Virus record (IMG/VR): IMGVR_UViG_3300046522_000316
Location: 250,290 to 314,289 of that record
Source of the DNA: a virus
Taxonomy: Duplodnaviria; Caudoviricetes
Reading direction: 5' to 3' (one strand)
DNA: 64,000 bases
In this document: piece by piece, positions 17,034-51,792 of the stretch
Layout of the letters: every line of letters starts with the position of its first letter
Numbering within the stretch: position 1 is the stretch's first letter
Notes under the pieces: generated by a model
Told to the model about the DNA's origin: nothing
Databases searched by the model: none
What the model saw: only the letters and a program-made list of their open reading frames with translations
Program-made: the position numbers and the translations under genes

Positions 17034-17551
17034 TATTTTTCTGCCTTGTAATGCCGATGTTCGGAACGGCCACCGTGGTCAACGATACCGATTCGGAAAT
17101 TGCTGTATTCGATTTCCGTGAGAATCACGCGGGCATGTGCCGCTGCCTGTTCCGCGTCGTCACACAAACCTTTTCGAACCACGCTGTCATGGCCCCACGT
17201 CCGGCACATATTGCCGATGTATGCGCGCAGCATTCCGTTGAATTCGTCGATTGCCGTTGCGCGTTCGTTTTCGTCCGCTGGCAACACGATTTCCATCTTG
17301 GCGAATTTCAGACGCGGGCTAAAATCTTTGCACGCTTGCCAGCCGTTCCACTGCATAGCGGTATCAGGATCATCCCCGCCCATGGGGTTCAGCTTTTCGG
17401 GAGGAAGCAAGCTTTCAAATTCTGCGCGGGATTTTTGCAGAAGTTTTCCACGATAACGGGCGCAAGTTGCAGCCCATTCATCAGCAGCTTTTTTCTGTGC
17501 CGCTTGGTACTCTTCGGGAGTGCCCAAAATATCTTCGAGGCTGCTTTTCAT
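17033..17551 (-). CDS. hypothetical protein
   Basis: Coupled tiled ORF. Confidence 0.6.
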   Translation of the reverse strand: MKSSLEDILGTPEEYQAAQKKAADEWAATCARYRGKLLQKSRAEFESLLPPEKLNPMGGDDPDTAMQWNGWQACKDFSPRLKFAKMEIVLPADENERATAIDEFNGMLRAYIGNMCRTWGHDSVVRKGLCDDAEQAAAHARVILTEIEYSNFRIGIVDHGGRSEHRHYKAEK

Positions 17552-17766
17552 GTTCTACGCCTTCTTGTCCAGCGGGAAAATTTACAGGTAAGAAAACAGA
17601 TCACGATCAAGACAATCAGGAACCCGACAAACGAAATAACCGGGCTATCGAAAAATACAATCTTGAAGCGACCGCTATACCAATCAATTACTGGCATGAG
17701 GCACGTTCCAAAACTTAACGTAATGGAATCGCCGTGCCTTGCCCAAAGCCAACGCAGAAAGTTCAC
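17548..17766 (-). CDS. small membrane protein
   Basis: TM VISFVGFLIVLIVICFL. Confidence 0.6.
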   Translation of the reverse strand: MNFLRWLWARHGDSITLSFGTCLMPVIDWYSGRFKIVFFDSPVISFVGFLIVLIVICFLTCKFSRWTRRRRT

Positions 17767-18038
17767 TTGAACATTTTCTCTGCCGGAACGTTGTAAGTTT
17801 CCTGCGCCATCACCGAATAAAACAGGCGGGCCAGATCGGTATGCGCTACCGGCGTTTTGTTCATCATGCGGCTGCGAATTGCGCTCGCCATTTCAGGACT
17901 GACAAAACCGTTTTCGTCGAACAGCTTTGGCGCCACCATTGGCGTTTCGTTCACGCGCACGTTGTTCTGTTTCAACTGGCCGTTCGACAGGAACAGAGTG
18001 GACAGCGTTTTGGCAGCTTGCAGATTTTTGTCGTTCAT
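17763..18038 (-). CDS. hypothetical protein
   Basis: GGAG SD; coupled. Confidence 0.6.
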   Translation of the reverse strand: MNDKNLQAAKTLSTLFLSNGQLKQNNVRVNETPMVAPKLFDENGFVSPEMASAIRSRMMNKTPVAHTDLARLFYSVMAQETYNVPAEKMFK

Positions 18039-18039
18039 T

Positions 18040-18612
18040 TTATTGCTCCCGTTGGGCGATGCGCTGTTGCACGTAGTTGATAAGTTCGTTCGTGGTTTGC
18101 CACGTCATGTCTTCGTCAGGAATTTCGATGCTGAAATGATCCTCGACACACAACGTCAGATCGAACATTGCAATTTCGTCAGCTTCCATTTCGCTGAATG
18201 GAGTGCGGACGTTGATGTGTTCTGCGCGATAACCAAAACTACCGGCCACCATTTCGAGAATCGTGGCTTTCAATTCTGGTGCCATTTCACTCGGCATAAT
18301 TTCCTCTACTTCGTCAAAGGGCACGGTATCAGGCAGCGGGTAATTCTTGGCTGCGTCGTCAAGCGCAGCGCGCAACGTAGGCTTTGGTTCAGTTCGTTCA
18401 AACCGCCACATTAAATTGAATTCTTTGGCCGGTGTACGCTGGAACATATTCGGGTTGATCGACAGGCCGCTATTCGACAGGGCCGTGCGACGTTCCAGAT
18501 AATCGAGGCGATCAGTATCCCCGAAAAGTTCGCGCAATTTTGCAGCGAGTTTGTAATCGGATGCGCACACCAATTCGTATGCGCGTTGGCGTTCCTGTTT
18601 GGTCAGGCTCAT
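18040..18612 (-). CDS. protein with C-terminal acyl carrier protein-like domain lacking the Ppant serine
   Basis: aa ~112-187: EADEIAMFDLTLCVEDHFSIEIPDEDMTWQTTNELINYV aligns to AcpP [26 protein letters not shown]...TTV..AIDYI with Ser->Glu146. Confidence 0.75.
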   Translation of the reverse strand: MSLTKQERQRAYELVCASDYKLAAKLRELFGDTDRLDYLERRTALSNSGLSINPNMFQRTPAKEFNLMWRFERTEPKPTLRAALDDAAKNYPLPDTVPFDEVEEIMPSEMAPELKATILEMVAGSFGYRAEHINVRTPFSEMEADEIAMFDLTLCVEDHFSIEIPDEDMTWQTTNELINYVQQRIAQREQ

Positions 18613-21526: not shown

Positions 21527-23545
21527 TTAGAATTTTACGTTCAGGATGCGATTGATTGCGCCCTTCACACGGACTTGCAGTTCAGCACGATCATTGACCG
21601 AGAAGCCAAGGCCGCTCAATTGGTCAGCGCTCGCAGGCACTTTCATTTGCGCGGAAACCGCTTCGAAAGCTTTGCGATGTTTGCTCAGTTCATCGCGCAG
21701 GTATTCGTTGTAGAAACCACGGGTGCCCTCTTCGTTCACGCAGCCTTTGAGCATAAAGAAAACATGCTCATGGCCCACGGCTTGATCGTTCCAGAAGTTT
21801 GGCGACTTCGTGATCAAATCAACCGGTGTCCATTCTTCGGTTTTGACGCCCCAGTTTTCAACCGAGGAACCTACGCCGCCGAGAATGCCTTCGCCTTCGA
21901 TGCTGATATTGCCCGCCGCATCGACGTTGATATAACCAACGGTAACGCGACGATCATTGCCCAGCGCCATTGGATGCGCGAAGCTATAGATTTTGCCCAG
22001 CACTTCAATTTCAACGTCGAAGCCGACATTATTGGTGGAACGCTGCGACCAGTTGTGAACCTTAATTTCGTAGCGGCCACGGTTGATATCGCCTTTGGCA
22101 GTCCAGAAAATGTTTTCCACTGGATCAACACTGTTCTTGGCGGAACCGGCGTTCATGTCCACATCGAGCGTGGCACCGAAAACTTTACGGGTACGGAAGT
22201 CGCAAACGTCACGACCATTGTTTACGCTCAGGTCGAGGTCATCGCCGTTCTGCCACGAAAGCGAAACGCGAATATCGCCGTCGATTTTACCGCCTGCTTT
22301 TTTCACACGTTCGCGAATCGACGACGAAGTAACTTCACCGATGTACGACCACGAAAATGGGTTGTCCCATTTCAGCAGTGGTTTCGCATCCGGATTAACC
22401 GGGGCGATCAGGGAAACGAAACTGGCGGTGTGTTCGCTCTTCACCAGCACTTCGAGGGTATCGGCTTTCGGCAAAACTTTCTTGATGAAATCTTTGATCG
22501 AAATGTCTTCAACATCGTTCAGCACTGGAACGTTTTTCTTGGTCGGTTTGATGCTGCCAAACGCGCCGCCCAGCAGTTGCTTTTTCACCGTGCCGTCAAC
22601 GAACAAAACGTCGTTAACCGAAATGTCTTCACGCACCGCATAACGACGCGCCAGCGAATCACCGAGGCCCAGTTTCTCGACCAGCTTTTCAGCTTCGTCG
22701 ATCATTTTCTGAGTGACCAACGCTTTCGAACGTTTGTAGTTCGGGCCAGCGGTTTTGAATTCGAAAGCCTTCACGGCGTTTTCGAGTTCCATGCCTTTGG
22801 TGATATCCGACAGCAGCGTGCCCACAACGTCGTTGAGAATGCGGGTGTGTGGCGTCGAATTCTTCCACAGGAAAATTTCACGACCGCGTTCGGTTTTCAG
22901 CTTGGCGTAATCCGCTTTCAGCTTGCGCAGCGCTACAACTTTCTTGCGCTTTTCGTCGCCTTTGTACAGCGAGTCGGTGTCGATCAGATCCATCACGATA
23001 TCAATCGCGAAATCCGAGATTTCATTGATCGAACGTTCCAGCAGATTTTTGTCTGCGTTGGATTCACCGATGTAGTCAGTTGGGTTTTTATCCCAACGGA
23101 AAAGCGCAGGCACCAGACCGTGGAAGTGGTGCCACACTTCGCCCGTTTCTTGGCTGGTGGTTTTCGCACAACCGTATTGCGGCATTTCCGCAATGAAACG
23201 GTTTTTGATTTTCAGCGAACGCACCTTCGCCGCCATTGCATCGGCCACCGCTTGATGCGTTGGATCATCGACCTGCACATCCCACACGGTCAGCAGCTTA
23301 CCTTTCTCGGCGTACACGACAGCACCGAGGTTGCGCACGAAGTTGTGGCAGGTATTGCACTCGTATTCGCGACGTTCACGGAACATCGGGTTGGTGCCTT
23401 CAGGGAACGACGCAAGGTAATGCGCCCACAATTCGTCACCGTGGATATCAACGAGGAAAACGCTGTTCTTTTTCCCTTCGTCTTTTTGCAGCATCGAATT
23501 GTAGTTTGCAGTTACAGCCTGACCGAATTTCGAAAAATCACTCAT
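21527..23545 (-). CDS. 672-aa protein with N-terminal Cys/His cluster and YfaP/DUF2135-like C-terminal beta domain
   Basis: ECNTCHNF and WHHFH motifs; DIRVSLSW.NGDDLDL...LDVDMN...PVENIFW...GRYEIKVHNW. Confidence 0.75.
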   Translation of the reverse strand: MSDFSKFGQAVTANYNSMLQKDEGKKNSVFLVDIHGDELWAHYLASFPEGTNPMFRERREYECNTCHNFVRNLGAVVYAEKGKLLTVWDVQVDDPTHQAVADAMAAKVRSLKIKNRFIAEMPQYGCAKTTSQETGEVWHHFHGLVPALFRWDKNPTDYIGESNADKNLLERSINEISDFAIDIVMDLIDTDSLYKGDEKRKKVVALRKLKADYAKLKTERGREIFLWKNSTPHTRILNDVVGTLLSDITKGMELENAVKAFEFKTAGPNYKRSKALVTQKMIDEAEKLVEKLGLGDSLARRYAVREDISVNDVLFVDGTVKKQLLGGAFGSIKPTKKNVPVLNDVEDISIKDFIKKVLPKADTLEVLVKSEHTASFVSLIAPVNPDAKPLLKWDNPFSWSYIGEVTSSSIRERVKKAGGKIDGDIRVSLSWQNGDDLDLSVNNGRDVCDFRTRKVFGATLDVDMNAGSAKNSVDPVENIFWTAKGDINRGRYEIKVHNWSQRSTNNVGFDVEIEVLGKIYSFAHPMALGNDRRVTVGYINVDAAGNISIEGEGILGGVGSSVENWGVKTEEWTPVDLITKSPNFWNDQAVGHEHVFFMLKGCVNEEGTRGFYNEYLRDELSKHRKAFEAVSAQMKVPASADQLSGLGFSVNDRAELQVRVKGAINRILNVKF

Positions 23546-33333: not shown

Positions 33334-33915
33334 TTATTCGCTGACCTTTACCATTTTCAGAAGAACAGGCGCCAGCGGAACAATGGTGAAGTCCGTCGCG
33401 AATTTCTCCGCGAATGTTTGGCCGACCTGAAACGCGCCGTGCAACATATTCGGCGCCCATACCTGAAGCTGACATTTCTTTTCGTCAGCGGTGCCCGGCT
33501 CGAACGTGACGGCGAAATTGAAATCGCGACCTTCCGGCGTCGGTGCGTCGGAATATTCGATACCGTCCTCTTCCTTTTCTTCGACCGTGGGCACGGTGCC
33601 TTCTACTTCGTCGCACCAGTGCTGGATATCGTTCCATGCAGTCACCAGCAGCAGATAAACCGGATCGACGAATTCAGCAGGCACCACGCTTGCCACGGCT
33701 TCGCGCTCGTTCATGGTGTAGAACCGGGAGTGGTCAACGATGCAGTAGTGCGTCGGTTCACCACGGGCCGCACATTCGGCGCGCTTGATATCCATCGCGG
33801 CGCTAGCAGCGTCAGAGGCCGCTTTGTCGAACGAATTTTCGCGTGCTGCCATTGCTTCGCGAATCCATTTTGCGAATTGTACTTTGTCCATTTTCATACT
33901 TTCCTTTCTGTCCAT
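33334..33915 (-). CDS. hypothetical protein
   Basis: GAGGAAG SD. Confidence 0.65.
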   Translation of the reverse strand: MDRKESMKMDKVQFAKWIREAMAARENSFDKAASDAASAAMDIKRAECAARGEPTHYCIVDHSRFYTMNEREAVASVVPAEFVDPVYLLLVTAWNDIQHWCDEVEGTVPTVEEKEEDGIEYSDAPTPEGRDFNFAVTFEPGTADEKKCQLQVWAPNMLHGAFQVGQTFAEKFATDFTIVPLAPVLLKMVKVSE

Positions 33916-33930
33916 CTTTCACTTCCTCAG

Positions 33931-34146: not shown

Positions 34147-34295
34147 CGGTTACGAACCCTGTCGTGCCGTTTCGGTTCGCGTTTCAGTTTTTCAATTTGT
34201 TCCTGCTTGCGTTGTTCCCGCAAGTATTCTGCAAATTGACGGTCGGCCCAGTCGCGCTGTTGCTGGCGCATGTTGTCGTGCCAGAACATAATTAA
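34101..34295 (-). CDS. hypothetical protein
   Basis: Hydrophobic small ORF; frame uncertain. Confidence 0.3.
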
Positions 34296-35527
34296 ATCCC
34301 CGATGTGATAATTGCAAAGTCACTCGGATTCAAATCGGTGTGCTGTGCAAATTTAACCAGTTCGGTAAAACCGAATCGGCCCGCCAGTTCGTCGATGATT
34401 TCGATCCGGCGTTTCATGCCCGACAATTCGTGAACTGCGGAAGCGTCGAAGTCGCACTTGCCTTCGTTTACGATGTGGTTAAAAAGGGCAACCAGACCGG
34501 GCGTAGAAACATCCGCCAACAAATCCACGATTTCGTCTTCGTCTTCCGCGTCGATAGTTTCGCCGTCGATTTCCTCTTCCTCTTCTTCGAGGTCGTCAGG
34601 GTCACGGAACGAAGAACAGACGTTGTAGCAACTGCGGCGGCACGGGTGAACCGATTCAATCATTTCGCGAAACACACGCAGCACGTCAGATTGCGCATGC
34701 GCCACGACGTTTTCACTTTCGTATAAATCGAAAACCCGATCCGTGATTTTCAATTCGAACGCTCGCTGCAAACTGAACAATTGCTGCGTCGTGTCTTTGC
34801 CGTTGTACAGGTGCTGCATATAGCGCAGCGATTGTTTCACGCAGGCCACATAACGCACGATTACAGATACCAGCCATTCGTCTAGGCTCTTCGGCATTGC
34901 AGCGCCAGACAAACGCGCCATATCGCACAGGGCCAGAATGTGCGACTCGGAACCGACGTTGTGATCAATCACCAGCATTTCACCAACGTACAAACGGAAG
35001 CCGTTAAAGCCTTCGCTGATTTCCACCACAGCACGGGCGAACGTGGTCGCGTTGGGCACGTTGCACAGGTGAATTGCACCGTCGCTGTGAATCTGCATCA
35101 CGAAACCGGCAGTGGCTTTTGTAGGCGCCAATTTCTTTTCGAGGTCGCCCATGATCAGCGACAGATTGTGCGGACGGCTGTTTTGGAATTTGACAGGCTC
35201 GCCAATTTCCTTTGCCATTTTCACCACGACCTTTTTCGGCTGCGCTACACGCGGCGCAGAATCCATCGGTTCGTGATTGGCGATATACGTTTCAATATCA
35301 CGAACCGTTCTCCAACCACTCGATACGCCGCCCGGAATTTCGATTTCGAATTCCTCTTCAAGATCCATGAGGATTTCGCCAAGATCCATTCCGTTGATTT
35401 TCAGGGAATGTCTGATCGTGTCTTCCGAATCAATCGGGTGCCCGATTTTCATGCCCATGTGATCAGTAATGACGCGGCGAATGCGGTTCATTTGATCAGC
35501 GGAAACTTTCTTGCTCGGCTTAGCCAT
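34292..35527 (-). CDS. 411-aa multidomain protein with N-terminal ACP-like domain lacking the Ppant serine
   Basis: Start MAKPSKK after family-B leader; LKINGMDLGEILMDLEEEFEIEIP...WRTVRDIETYI aligns to AcpP with Ser->Gly46; acidic tract near C-terminus. Confidence 0.75.
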   Translation of the reverse strand: MAKPSKKVSADQMNRIRRVITDHMGMKIGHPIDSEDTIRHSLKINGMDLGEILMDLEEEFEIEIPGGVSSGWRTVRDIETYIANHEPMDSAPRVAQPKKVVVKMAKEIGEPVKFQNSRPHNLSLIMGDLEKKLAPTKATAGFVMQIHSDGAIHLCNVPNATTFARAVVEISEGFNGFRLYVGEMLVIDHNVGSESHILALCDMARLSGAAMPKSLDEWLVSVIVRYVACVKQSLRYMQHLYNGKDTTQQLFSLQRAFELKITDRVFDLYESENVVAHAQSDVLRVFREMIESVHPCRRSCYNVCSSFRDPDDLEEEEEEIDGETIDAEDEDEIVDLLADVSTPGLVALFNHIVNEGKCDFDASAVHELSGMKRRIEIIDELAGRFGFTELVKFAQHTDLNPSDFAIITSGI

Positions 35528-35948: not shown

Positions 35949-36413
35949 TTAATCCTCTCGGAAATTACCGCGCACATCGCACGGCATGTACAGGGTGCGT
36001 TTCTCGCCTTTGTCGTCCGTCACCTTTTTAGCGCGGAGAACTTTGTACGGGTCGAGGCCGTACACGAAATTGTCAACGCGGCAGTGAATACGCGCCCATG
36101 CAGAACCCGGCGAATATTCTTCCCACGCCACAATTGCATCACGCAGCGATGCAAAGTCGTCGCTGTATTTGCAACTTTCCTCGCCGTCGCTTTCGTACTT
36201 GCCGGTAACGACGCCGTAAGGAAAAGCAGCGTCTGCAAATTGCGCCAGCGTTTCGGCAGGCAACGCATTGTGACGGCTCGCCAAGTCGATCAACTTTTTG
36301 AGGTATTCGGTTTCCGTTACCAAACCATCCTGCAATTGCGTGTGCAGTTGGTTTGCTTCGGCGCCAGTGGCGATATTGAATTGCAGAACGGCCAACAGGT
36401 TCAGGTTGAACAT
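35949..36413 (-). CDS. hypothetical protein, first gene after sigma70 promoter
   Basis: Start reassigned to MFNLNL after family-A leader. Confidence 0.7.
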   Translation of the reverse strand: MFNLNLLAVLQFNIATGAEANQLHTQLQDGLVTETEYLKKLIDLASRHNALPAETLAQFADAAFPYGVVTGKYESDGEESCKYSDDFASLRDAIVAWEEYSPGSAWARIHCRVDNFVYGLDPYKVLRAKKVTDDKGEKRTLYMPCDVRGNFRED

Positions 36414-36503
36414 TTTAACTTCCTCTATTGCGTGAGTGTGTGAATCGTGGGCGCAACTTGCCCGACTGGATTTCATTGTACCTATGCACCGACGAACGGT
36501 CAA
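36414..36503 (-). promoter_or_regulatory. sigma70-type promoter plus family-A leader
   Basis: TTGACC(36503-36498)-17 bp-TACAAT(36480-36475); CACACTCACGCAATAGAGGAAG. Confidence 0.8.
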
Positions 36504-36504
36504 C

Positions 36505-36532
36505 AAACGAAAACAGCCCCTACAGGGGCCGC
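36505..36532 (-). terminator. intrinsic terminator
   Basis: GCGGCCCC-TGTA-GGGGCTGT-TTTCGTTT. Confidence 0.65.
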
Positions 36533-51459: not shown

Positions 51460-51792
51460 TTACAGGTCGTCGCGGTTGATTGTGAATCCCGCACCGTGGC
51501 GGTTAATGATGGTTAAAAGTCTTCCGCCTTCGGGTTCTTTCGGAAGCGGCGCGTCAGGATCATAGGTCGTAAGGTAATCGACAATATCCTGCGGCGTCTT
51601 CCAACCGTGGCCCGCAACGTAACCAACCTTTAGATGGAAATCACGTTCCAGCGACAGGCCCAAAATGTCCAAGTCCACGCGATTCTGAATCAGGTGAACT
51701 AGCGGCGTGTCGAGTTTCACCAGCACCGGATTAGTTGCGGTGGCAGTGGCTACGATTCGAAGCACTTCAGCGGCGATTACTTGCATATCCAT
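51460..51792 (-). CDS. stand-alone ACP-like protein lacking the Ppant serine
   Basis: LDTPLVHLIQNRVDLDILGLSLERDF...GWKTPQDIVDYL aligns to the ACP fold with Ser->Arg38. Confidence 0.65.
   Translation of the reverse strand: MDMQVIAAEVLRIVATATATNPVLVKLDTPLVHLIQNRVDLDILGLSLERDFHLKVGYVAGHGWKTPQDIVDYLTTYDPDAPLPKEPEGGRLLTIINRHGAGFTINRDDL

What the first reader, a model, noticed from the sequence alone, without database searches (positions are those of the whole stretch)
18040..18612. ACP mimic 1: Ser->Glu, fused behind a small phage domain
Seen: aa 112-187 is the most AcpP-like copy in helix III (FSIEIPDEDM versus [10 protein letters not shown]) and is strongly acidic. Codon 18177-18175 is GAA (Glu) at the serine position. 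The N-terminal ~110 aa carry a DTDRLDYL...TLRAALD motif common in small phage proteins. Inference: Glu may imitate the phosphate of the Ppant linkage, giving a constitutive holo-ACP-like surface.
Basis: partly seen in the sequence, partly recalled or inferred. Interest (0 to 1): 0.75.

Follow-up and report, generated by a model that had tools for sequence, protein, structure and literature searches.

The report
Phage carrier protein lacking attachment serine
A giant soil phage encodes a two-part protein whose rear half has the shape of the bacterial acyl carrier protein but carries glutamate where the cofactor-bearing serine should be; most relatives keep the serine, so this is a natural cofactor-free variant that is still under selection and probably works by binding a partner, though its role is untested.

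Summary
ORF 18040..18612 (-) encodes 190 aa. Residues 112-190 are a genuine ACP domain: Pfam PP-binding scores 33.7 bits against a cut-off of 20.8, and the model superposes on E. coli AcpP at 0.9 A. Codon 18177-18175 is GAA (Glu146), at the phosphopantetheine-serine position at the start of helix II. Residues 1-95 are a small phage domain that also occurs alone in about 35 small phage proteins of unknown function.

Of 16 fusion homologues, 12 keep Ser, including all outgroups, so Ser is ancestral. Three have Glu and one has Asn. Glu146 is not an error: an independent 94%-identical copy has the same GAA.

The Ser-less ACP domains remain under purifying selection (omega 0.16-0.29). They keep the acidic helix II/III face, and they form a local island of divergence between otherwise similar phages. 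No PPTase or acyl-handling enzyme is detectable nearby.

Pseudomonas phage Lu11 gene 0371 also has Ser->Glu in an unrelated fusion. A second domain in this window has Ser->Gly.

Best reading (0.45): a cofactor-independent ACP-fold binding module. A specific phosphate mimic is possible but unproven, and the Asn variant argues against it.

The parts
18040..18612 (-). Whole CDS, 190 aa plus stop (P0001): small phage domain, linker and ACP-fold domain
   Evidence: ORF list and translation. Called as a gene on an independent contig. The codon-usage gene model scores it 57.1.
18328..18612 (-). N-terminal domain, aa 1-95: helix 5-15, long helix 20-45, beta-hairpin 50-54/65-69, helix 80-90; basic (pI 8.8)
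   Evidence: AF2 model at pLDDT 77-95 over this part. Mean column identity is 89% among 10 fusions. omega is 0.044 against the 94% relative. About 35 stand-alone relatives of 60-176 aa exist. These stand-alone relatives weakly match phrog_14017. No Pfam or PDB sequence match.
18280..18327 (-). Linker, aa 96-111: proline/acidic, variable in length and sequence
   Evidence: pLDDT is below 50 at residues 103-107. Homologues differ by indels and high dN here.
18043..18279 (-). ACP-fold domain, aa 112-190: helices 112-126, 146-160 and 174-189
   Evidence: Pfam PF00550 at 33.7 bits, above the 20.8 cut-off. VIA-align Z 14.1, rmsd 1.5 A over 81 residues to 7auf_A. Foldseek finds E. coli AcpP 4etw_B at TM 0.89 and rmsd 0.9 A.
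18175..18177 (-). Codon 146, GAA = Glu, at the position of the phosphopantetheine serine (AcpP Ser36), the first residue of helix II
   Evidence: The same codon is in L010 and in P0008's gene. Relatives with Ser use AGC, TCA or TCG, and the Asn relative uses AAT.
18106..18183 (-). Helix II to helix III face, aa 144-169 (ADEIAMFDLTLCVEDHFSIEIPDEDM): the acidic partner-recognition surface of ACPs is retained. The attachment motif is degraded, with G-A-D-S-L-D replaced by E-A-D-E-I-A.
   Evidence: Alignments to ACPs 2ehs, 7e42 and 7pdi. Family alignment.
17763..18038 (-). Context only: 91-aa gene directly downstream, with its start one base after the fusion's stop. Conserved in most relatives. 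It occupies the slot where phage HRDY3 has a canonical stand-alone ACP.
   Evidence: It is not ACP-like by Pfam or by profile-profile comparison. It is not adjacent to the fusion in L011. No binding has been shown.

Best explanation
This is a two-domain protein of a ~314-kb soil or rhizosphere jumbo phage distantly related to Pseudomonas phages HRDY3 and Lu11. A well-conserved small phage domain (aa 1-95) is tethered by a flexible acidic linker to an ACP-fold domain (aa 112-190). That domain cannot receive 4'-phosphopantetheine, because the attachment serine is glutamate and the surrounding motif has also decayed (G-A-D-S-L-D to E-A-D-E-I-A).

Shown: the fold, the register of Glu146, that Ser is ancestral in the family, the loss of Ser in a sub-lineage of ACP-domain alleles (Glu, Glu, Asn), continued purifying selection on those Ser-less domains, and retention of the acidic helix II/III face.

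Inferred: in this phage the domain no longer carries acyl groups. It works as a prosthetic-group-free protein-binding module, a non-acylatable ACP look-alike that docks on a protein which normally recognises ACP helix II. That protein is most likely a host ACP client or the host PPTase. The conserved N-domain supplies the constant anchoring or effector function. Residue 146 needs only to suit a helix N-terminus on an acidic surface, and Glu is a recurrent but not obligatory solution.
For: - **Fold and register:** shown.
- **Ser is ancestral:** 12 of 16 fusions keep Ser, including the outgroups P0013, P0014, P0051, P0052 and HRDY3. The rest are Glu in P0001, P0002 and P0008 and Asn in P0010.
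- **Purifying selection persists:** omega for the ACP domain is 0.285 between window and L010 (Fisher p = 0.011) and 0.16 between P0008 and P0010 (p = 8e-8). There are no frameshifts or truncations.
- **Recognition face retained:** the helix II/III acidic residues are kept, equivalent to AcpP D35, E41, E47, E48, E53, I54, P55, D56, E57 and E58.
- **No carrier machinery nearby:** no PPTase, FAS, PKS, NRPS or adenylating enzyme appears among 121 window proteins. There is no PPTase in the whole HRDY3 genome. The carrier is an orphan.
- **Variable module on a constant one:** between the window and L002 the ACP domain is 43% identical, the N-domain 83% and neighbouring genes about 55-85%. DNA identity between L002 and L004 drops from about 0.9 to 0.55-0.69 exactly over the linker and ACP domain.
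- **Recurrence elsewhere:** Lu11_0371 has ADE at the ADS position, and the window's 411-aa protein has ING.
Against: - No partner has been identified and there is no experimental data.
- Most family members keep a canonical GADS motif and are probably modified by the host PPTase. The ancestral function may therefore use the cofactor, and the Ser-less forms could do something different or less.
- The ACP domain evolves faster than the N-domain (omega 0.285 against 0.044; 10 against 2 nonsynonymous differences, p = 0.015). This also fits partial relaxation of constraint.
- D38 of the recognition helix is Ala here.
- The host is not known.
Confidence: 0.45

Rival explanations
1. Decaying carrier. 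The family's real job needs the holo (Ser) form. In this lineage that job became dispensable, the serine was lost neutrally, and the ACP domain survives mainly as a passenger of the strongly selected N-domain.
For: - Ser is ancestral and predominant, in 12 of 16 fusions.
- The Ser-less domains sit on long branches.
- Between window and L010, omega is about 6 times higher in the ACP domain than in the N-domain.
- The motif around the serine has decayed further here: G to E and D to A.
Against: - omega is still clearly below 1 in two separate Ser-less comparisons (p = 0.011 and 8e-8).
- The reading frame is intact in all four Ser-less alleles.
- The helix II/III motif is conserved.
- The same Ser->Glu state occurs in a different phage protein, Lu11_0371.
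- The model folds with high confidence, pLDDT 89-96 over the domain.
Confidence: 0.25
2. Glu146 is a specific phosphomimic of the Ser-O-phosphodiester, so the domain presents a constitutive holo-ACP-like surface to partners that distinguish holo from apo ACP, such as SpoT.
For: - Glu recurs at this exact position in P0001/P0002, in P0008 and in Lu11_0371.
- Going from any Ser codon to GAA needs at least two base changes.
- SpoT is reported to bind holo-ACP but not apo-ACP (review PMC3896788).
Against: - The sister allele of P0008 has Asn, which is uncharged.
- The window's other Ser-less ACP-like domain has Gly.
- The ACP-domain tree allows a single loss within the fusions, so P0001/2 and P0008 may share one event.
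- From general knowledge: a carboxylate cannot replace the pantetheine arm that most clients bind, and acidic residues are generally favoured at helix N-termini.
Confidence: 0.12
3. Phage-internal role. The ACP-fold domain binds another phage protein, for example the translationally coupled 91-aa neighbour or a virion or replication component, and has nothing to do with host ACP clients.
For: - Tight coupling and co-conservation with the 91-aa gene in most relatives.
- HRDY3 has a second ACP in that slot.
- The gene lies in a long co-oriented array of phage-specific genes.
Against: - The 91-aa gene is not adjacent in L011.
- The retained surface is the generic ACP recognition helix, which is more easily explained by a partner that normally sees ACP.
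Confidence: 0.13
4. Sequencing or assembly error, or a one-off mutation in a single genome.
For: None found.
Against: - The identical GAA codon is present in L001 (another run) and in L010, a 94%-identical copy from another sample.
- Contigs from three further studies cover the site with no listed change, although that list was truncated.
Confidence: 0.02

Closest known systems
Bacterial type II FAS acyl carrier protein (E. coli / Pseudomonas AcpP; Pfam PF00550)
   Same: Same four-helix fold: TM 0.89 and rmsd 0.9 A to 4etw_B, Z 12.8 to 4ihf_G. Acidic pI. Near-canonical helix II/III sequence (LxxxVEDHFxIEIPDED).
   Different: The serine that carries 4'-phosphopantetheine is Glu. G33 and D38 of the attachment motif are also changed. 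The domain is fused behind a 95-aa phage domain. No cognate enzymes are detectable. Identity to AcpPs is only about 24-35%, so it is not a recent capture of the host gene.
Pseudomonas phage HRDY3 XDJ15383.1 'acyl carrier protein' (236 aa) and metagenomic orthologues P0003-P0007, P0009, P0013, P0014, P0051, P0052
   Same: Same architecture (N-domain with RLD[YF]L...MW[RH]...LR.AID, then linker, then ACP domain) and same syntenic neighbourhood.
   Different: All of these keep the canonical D-S-[LV]-D serine. HRDY3 is additionally followed by a canonical stand-alone ACP (GGDSLD), where this phage has an unrelated 91-aa gene.
Pseudomonas phage Lu11 gene Lu11_0371 (AFH14909.1, 241 aa, annotated hypothetical)
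   Same: Its ACP-like domain has the same A-D-E in place of A-D-S. It is 29% identical to aa 106-186 of this protein.
   Different: The ACP-like domain is N-terminal and fused to a different partner. By synteny it corresponds to the window's 33.3-36.5 kb region ('mimic 2'), not to this gene.
Unmodifiable or apo-ACP as a growth inhibitor in E. coli
   Same: An ACP that lacks the prosthetic group still binds ACP clients. apo-ACP inhibits glycerol-3-phosphate acyltransferase more strongly than holo-ACP (PMC3896788). This is a functional analogy for a decoy mechanism.
   Different: That is an over-expression artefact of the host's own protein, not a dedicated viral gene. No such activity has been tested for this protein.
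Phage 'ACP' auxiliary genes (PHROG 5934; ACP modules reported in jumbophages, PMC13573597)
   Same: Matches phrog_5934 at E 8.8e-8. BFVD holds many phage ACP models with the same fold.
   Different: Those are mostly stand-alone proteins of about 80 aa and are assumed to be carriers. This one is fused and cannot be loaded.

Membership tests
PP-binding / acyl carrier protein (PF00550) | Sequence profile match above Pfam's gathering score | tested here: met
   33.7 bits against a cut-off of 20.8, aa 117-181 covering profile positions 2-67 of 67.
PP-binding / acyl carrier protein (PF00550) | Four-helix ACP fold | tested here: met
   AF2 pLDDT 89-96 over the domain. VIA Z 14.1 with rmsd 1.5 A over 81 residues. 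Foldseek TM 0.89 and rmsd 0.9 A to E. coli AcpP.
PP-binding / acyl carrier protein (PF00550) | Conserved serine of the (D)SL motif at the N-terminus of helix II, the phosphopantetheine attachment site | tested here: not met
   Glu146 (GAA) aligns with the serine in three PDB ACP alignments and in the family alignment. Ser140 nearby is not conserved in homologues and lies in the preceding loop.
PP-binding / acyl carrier protein (PF00550) | Actually carries 4'-phosphopantetheine and acyl groups | not testable with these tools
   Needs mass spectrometry of the expressed protein.
PP-binding / acyl carrier protein (PF00550) | Cognate PPTase or acyl-handling enzymes encoded alongside | tested here: not met
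   No ACPS, AMP-binding, ketosynthase or similar family among 121 window proteins. No PF01648 in the whole genome of relative HRDY3. The rest of this phage's ~314 kb could not be searched.
Small phage domain related to phrog_14017 (function unknown) | Profile match to the family | tested here: inconclusive
   The N-domain itself gives no PHROG hit. A profile built from the fusions alone finds stand-alone proteins P0016-P0018 at E 2e-4 to 7e-4. Of these, P0017 and P0018 match phrog_14017 at 3e-3 and 1e-4. A second-round profile finds 35 stand-alone relatives.
Phage tail assembly chaperone TAC_6 (PF09550) | Profile match above the gathering score | tested here: not met
   15.6-17.4 bits against a cut-off of 23.4. 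No tail genes in the neighbourhood.

The most novel reading that the evidence does not exclude
Jumbo phages of the Lu11/HRDY3-related soil group deploy a set of prosthetic-group-free ACP-fold domains. Examples are this Ser->Glu fusion, the Ser->Gly head of the 411-aa protein in the same window, and Lu11_0371 with Ser->Glu. On this reading they act as modular decoys or targeting tags that plug into the host's ACP interactome (FAS II, lipid A and phospholipid synthesis, SpoT, PPTase), each delivering a different fused effector. That would be a previously unrecognised class of host-takeover proteins. The fast-evolving, recombining ACP module would set partner or host specificity.
Probability: 0.2. 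Interest if true: 0.8.

Novelty: new variant of a known kind. Interest (0 to 1): 0.5.

Why it matters
Phage 'ACP' genes are routinely listed as auxiliary metabolic genes on the assumption that they carry acyl groups. This family gives a natural experiment. Orthologues with and without the attachment serine sit in the same genomic slot, and the Ser-less ones are still under selection. At least part of the function of phage ACP-fold domains therefore does not need the cofactor.

If the domain is a decoy for ACP-dependent host enzymes, it would be a new way for phages to throttle membrane or LPS synthesis. It would also be a compact natural tool for probing the ACP interactome. The finding gives a directly testable pair of constructs: the Glu146 protein against a Ser orthologue.

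Tried and rejected
- **Megablast of 3 kb against GenBank phages:** no match.
- **IMG/VR scan with the family alignment:** none found.
- **JGI metagenome scan with the 411-aa protein:** none found. I therefore could not ask whether relatives keep Ser in 'mimic 2'.
- **Whole-genome search of the window's own phage:** not possible, because no genome is held. A PPTase elsewhere in its ~314 kb is not excluded.
- **First AF2 run with 10 sequences:** unusable, pLDDT 41.
- **Fold of the N-domain:** A profile of the N-domain against PDB sequences gave only chance hits with E above 0.7. The ESM Atlas feature search gave nothing.
- **Complex prediction of the fusion with the 91-aa neighbour:** no verdict, score 0.00. 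This counts neither for nor against binding.
- **91-aa neighbour as a cryptic ACP:** Pfam gave no hit and hhalign gave probability 0.1%. Rejected at sequence level.
- **Weak Pfam hit to Phage_TAC_6:** below the cut-off, so it was treated as chance.
- **Promoter and terminator scan of 13.0-24.5 kb:** counts were at the shuffled background, so nothing can be said about the transcription unit.
- **RNA evidence:** no RNA holder was listed among the public runs.
- **P0015 (1567 aa, five partial matches to the RLDYLE stretch):** appears to be a coiled-coil or low-complexity match.
- **Literature searches:** no functional study of phage ACPs lacking the serine turned up.

Full report
**1. What is there**

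The minus-strand ORF 18040..18612 encodes 190 aa. It sits in a block of about 125 small genes, nearly all on the minus strand. Only 12 of 121 scanned proteins in that block have any Pfam family. The protein is recorded on a 314-kb contig. Its only GenBank phage relatives are the Pseudomonas jumbo phages HRDY3 and Lu11, at 24-30% identity. Near-identical DNA occurs in 20 public runs from 14 studies of rhizosphere, soil, plant and food metagenomes. It is therefore a jumbo phage of a soil or plant-associated host, plausibly Pseudomonas-like.

**2.

- Pfam PP-binding matches aa 117-181 at 33.7 bits against a cut-off of 20.8. PHROG 5934 'acyl carrier protein' matches at 8.8e-8.
- phmmer against PDB aligns query 'meADEiam' to 'lgADSldv' of three ACPs. 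Residue 146 is encoded by GAA at 18177-18175.
- With a 43-row alignment, AlphaFold gives pLDDT 86.4. The model has two domains separated by a disordered linker, and helix II starts exactly at residue 146.
- The C-domain superposes on solved ACPs: Z 14.1 with rmsd 1.5 A over 81 residues, and E. coli AcpP at TM 0.89 and rmsd 0.9 A.
- The domain is acidic, pI 4.23. It keeps the equivalents of AcpP D35, E41, E47, E48, E53, I54, P55, D56, E57 and E58. G33 is Glu and D38 is Ala.
- Ser140 in the preceding loop is not conserved in homologues, so it is not an alternative attachment site.

**3. The N-terminal domain**

- Residues 1-95 are much better conserved than the ACP domain, at 89% mean column identity among ten fusions.
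- A profile of this part alone finds only seven representative clusters among 1.8 billion proteins. They include stand-alone proteins of 84-102 aa.
- A second-round profile finds 35 stand-alone relatives, and two proteins with the domain at their C-terminus.
- The core is D..RLD[WYF]LE...S.TG.S[FI]...MWRH...TLRAAID.A. It is modelled as a long helix, a beta-hairpin and a helix.
- Stand-alone members lie among small early or accessory genes of ordinary phages, next to ERF/YqaJ/SSB or Thy1/RdgC. They weakly match phrog_14017, a family of unknown function.
- The domain's function is unknown. Its fold could not be compared with known structures, because the ACP domain filled every hit list.

**4. 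Do homologues keep the serine?**

Sixteen proteins with the same N-domain plus ACP architecture were recovered (and HRDY3).

- Twelve have D-S-[LV]-D. These are P0003-7, P0009, P0013, P0014, P0051, P0052 and HRDY3's P0011.
- Three have Glu: P0001, its 94% relative P0002, and P0008.
- One has Asn: P0010.

All outgroups have Ser, so Ser is ancestral.

With the site masked, the ACP-domain tree puts the four Ser-less sequences on one side of a branch, but with weak support (71/42). The minimum is two state changes. A single loss followed by Glu/Asn interconversion is therefore as good as two losses.

Codons are AGC, TCA or TCG for Ser, AAT for Asn and GAA for Glu.

**5. The Ser-less domains are not dead**

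- Between the window and L010, omega is 0.285 in the ACP domain (about 10 nonsynonymous and 8 synonymous differences, Fisher p = 0.011 for omega below 1). It is 0.044 in the N-domain.
- Between P0008 (Glu) and P0010 (Asn), omega in the ACP domain is 0.16 (p = 8e-8).
- All frames are intact.
- Even so, the ACP domain evolves faster than the rest. Between window and L002 it is 43% identical, against 83% for the N-domain and about 55-85% for neighbouring genes.
- Between L002 and L004, DNA identity is 0.85-0.94 in the flanks and N-domain. It falls to 0.55-0.69 exactly over the linker and ACP domain, and returns to 0.93-0.97 immediately downstream.
- In the N-domain, the grouping of P0008 with P0010 seen in the ACP tree is disfavoured (AU p = 0.021, and the group was named after seeing the tree).

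The ACP domain therefore behaves as an exchangeable, fast-evolving module on a constant N-domain.

**6. Context**

- No PPTase or acyl-handling enzyme is detectable in the window.
- HRDY3's whole genome has no PF01648 hit and only the two adjacent PP-binding genes.
- In HRDY3 the fusion (with Ser) is followed by a canonical stand-alone ACP. In this clade that slot holds a conserved 91-aa gene. It is not ACP-like by Pfam or hhalign and is not adjacent in L011.
- A complex prediction for the pair gave no verdict.

**7. Ser-less ACP folds recur in this phage group**

- The N-terminus of the window's 411-aa protein (34292..35527) matches B. subtilis ACP at E 5.8e-7, with I-N-G-M over A-D-S-L.
- Lu11_0371 has an N-terminal ACP-like domain with A-D-E over A-D-S. 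By synteny it corresponds to the window's 33.3-36.5 kb region.
- The third claimed 'mimic' (51460..51792) gave no family hit. It shows only a chance-level phmmer score to this domain.

**8. Interpretation**

The best-supported reading is a cofactor-independent ACP-fold binding module tethered to a conserved small phage domain. The attachment site has decayed, but the generic ACP recognition face is kept under selection. This points to a partner that normally recognises ACP. apo-ACP is known to inhibit E. coli PlsB more strongly than holo-ACP and to arrest growth (PMC3896788), so a non-loadable ACP decoy is mechanistically plausible. A 2026 preprint predicts that a phage ACP binds host FabZ (10.64898/2026.03.01.708874). 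This is inference, and no partner is known.

The rivals are:

- partial decay after loss of a carrier function, favoured by the higher omega and long branches;
- a phage-internal partner;
The recurrence of Glu supports it. Asn and Gly in sister or parallel cases weaken it, as does the fact that acidic and capping residues are simply well tolerated at helix N-termini (general knowledge).

**9. Novelty**

ACP folds and phage 'ACP' genes are known, and inactive carrier domains exist elsewhere. What is new here is a defined phage family in which orthologues with and without the serine occupy the same slot. The Ser-less forms are under purifying selection, and the domain is a recombining hot spot. 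I found no published functional work on it. I rate it a new variant of a known kind, with moderate interest.

Noticed in passing
window 34292-35527 (-), N-terminal ~90 aa (35243-35527): A second genuine ACP-like domain heads a 411-aa protein. phmmer to B. subtilis ACP 1f80 gives E 5.8e-7, with 'INGM' aligned to 'ADSL', so Ser is Gly and the preceding Asp is Asn. Pfam scores 18.6 bits, just under the cut-off, and phrog_5934 gives 2.5e-6.
   Followed up: partly
L014:1222-1947 (Pseudomonas phage Lu11, Lu11_0371, AFH14909.1); window 33337-33918 and 35952-36506: This cultured-phage gene, annotated hypothetical, has an N-terminal ACP-like domain with A-D-E in place of A-D-S. Its C-terminal part is 44% identical to window ORF 33337-33918. 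Its upstream neighbour Lu11_0372 is 52% identical to window ORF 35952-36506. It is therefore the positional counterpart of the window's 'mimic 2' region, split or fused differently.
   Followed up: partly
window 51460-51792 (-): The third claimed 'ACP mimic' has no Pfam or PHROG hit at the thresholds used. It shows only chance-level similarity to the ACP domain here (phmmer E 0.43; BLASTP to Lu11_0371 E 0.68). Its ACP nature is unverified.
   Followed up: partly
L002:10300-10585 versus L004:8300-8582: Two otherwise ~90% identical phages differ sharply (55-69% DNA identity) only across the linker and ACP domain of the fusion gene, with identity restored right after the stop codon. This is a domain-sized mosaic or divergence island.
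   Followed up: yes
window 1-64000: Nearly all of the ~125 predicted genes are on the minus strand, and only 12 of 121 have a Pfam family. The hits include a VgrG3-like C-terminal domain (7e-55), RlaP, LytTR, KORA, KH, a 2OG-Fe(II) oxygenase and a weak GNAT.
   Followed up: no
window 17548-17766 (-): A 72-aa ORF with a hydrophobic stretch fills the gap between the 91-aa and 172-aa genes, where relatives have a called 74-aa gene. It was not called on contig L001 or by my codon model.
   Followed up: no
window 21527-23545 (-): This 672-aa protein is conserved at 66-76% in all relatives, whose precomputed annotation gives PF26675 (DUF8224). The Pfam copy used here returned no family for the window's copy.
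   Followed up: no
L010:6759-6863 and L011:12530-12631: Relatives carry a tiny 33-34-aa gene with an N_methyl (type IV pilin-like prepilin) motif between the 356/361-aa and 198-aa genes. I did not check whether the window has it, around 13.78-13.90 kb.
   Followed up: no
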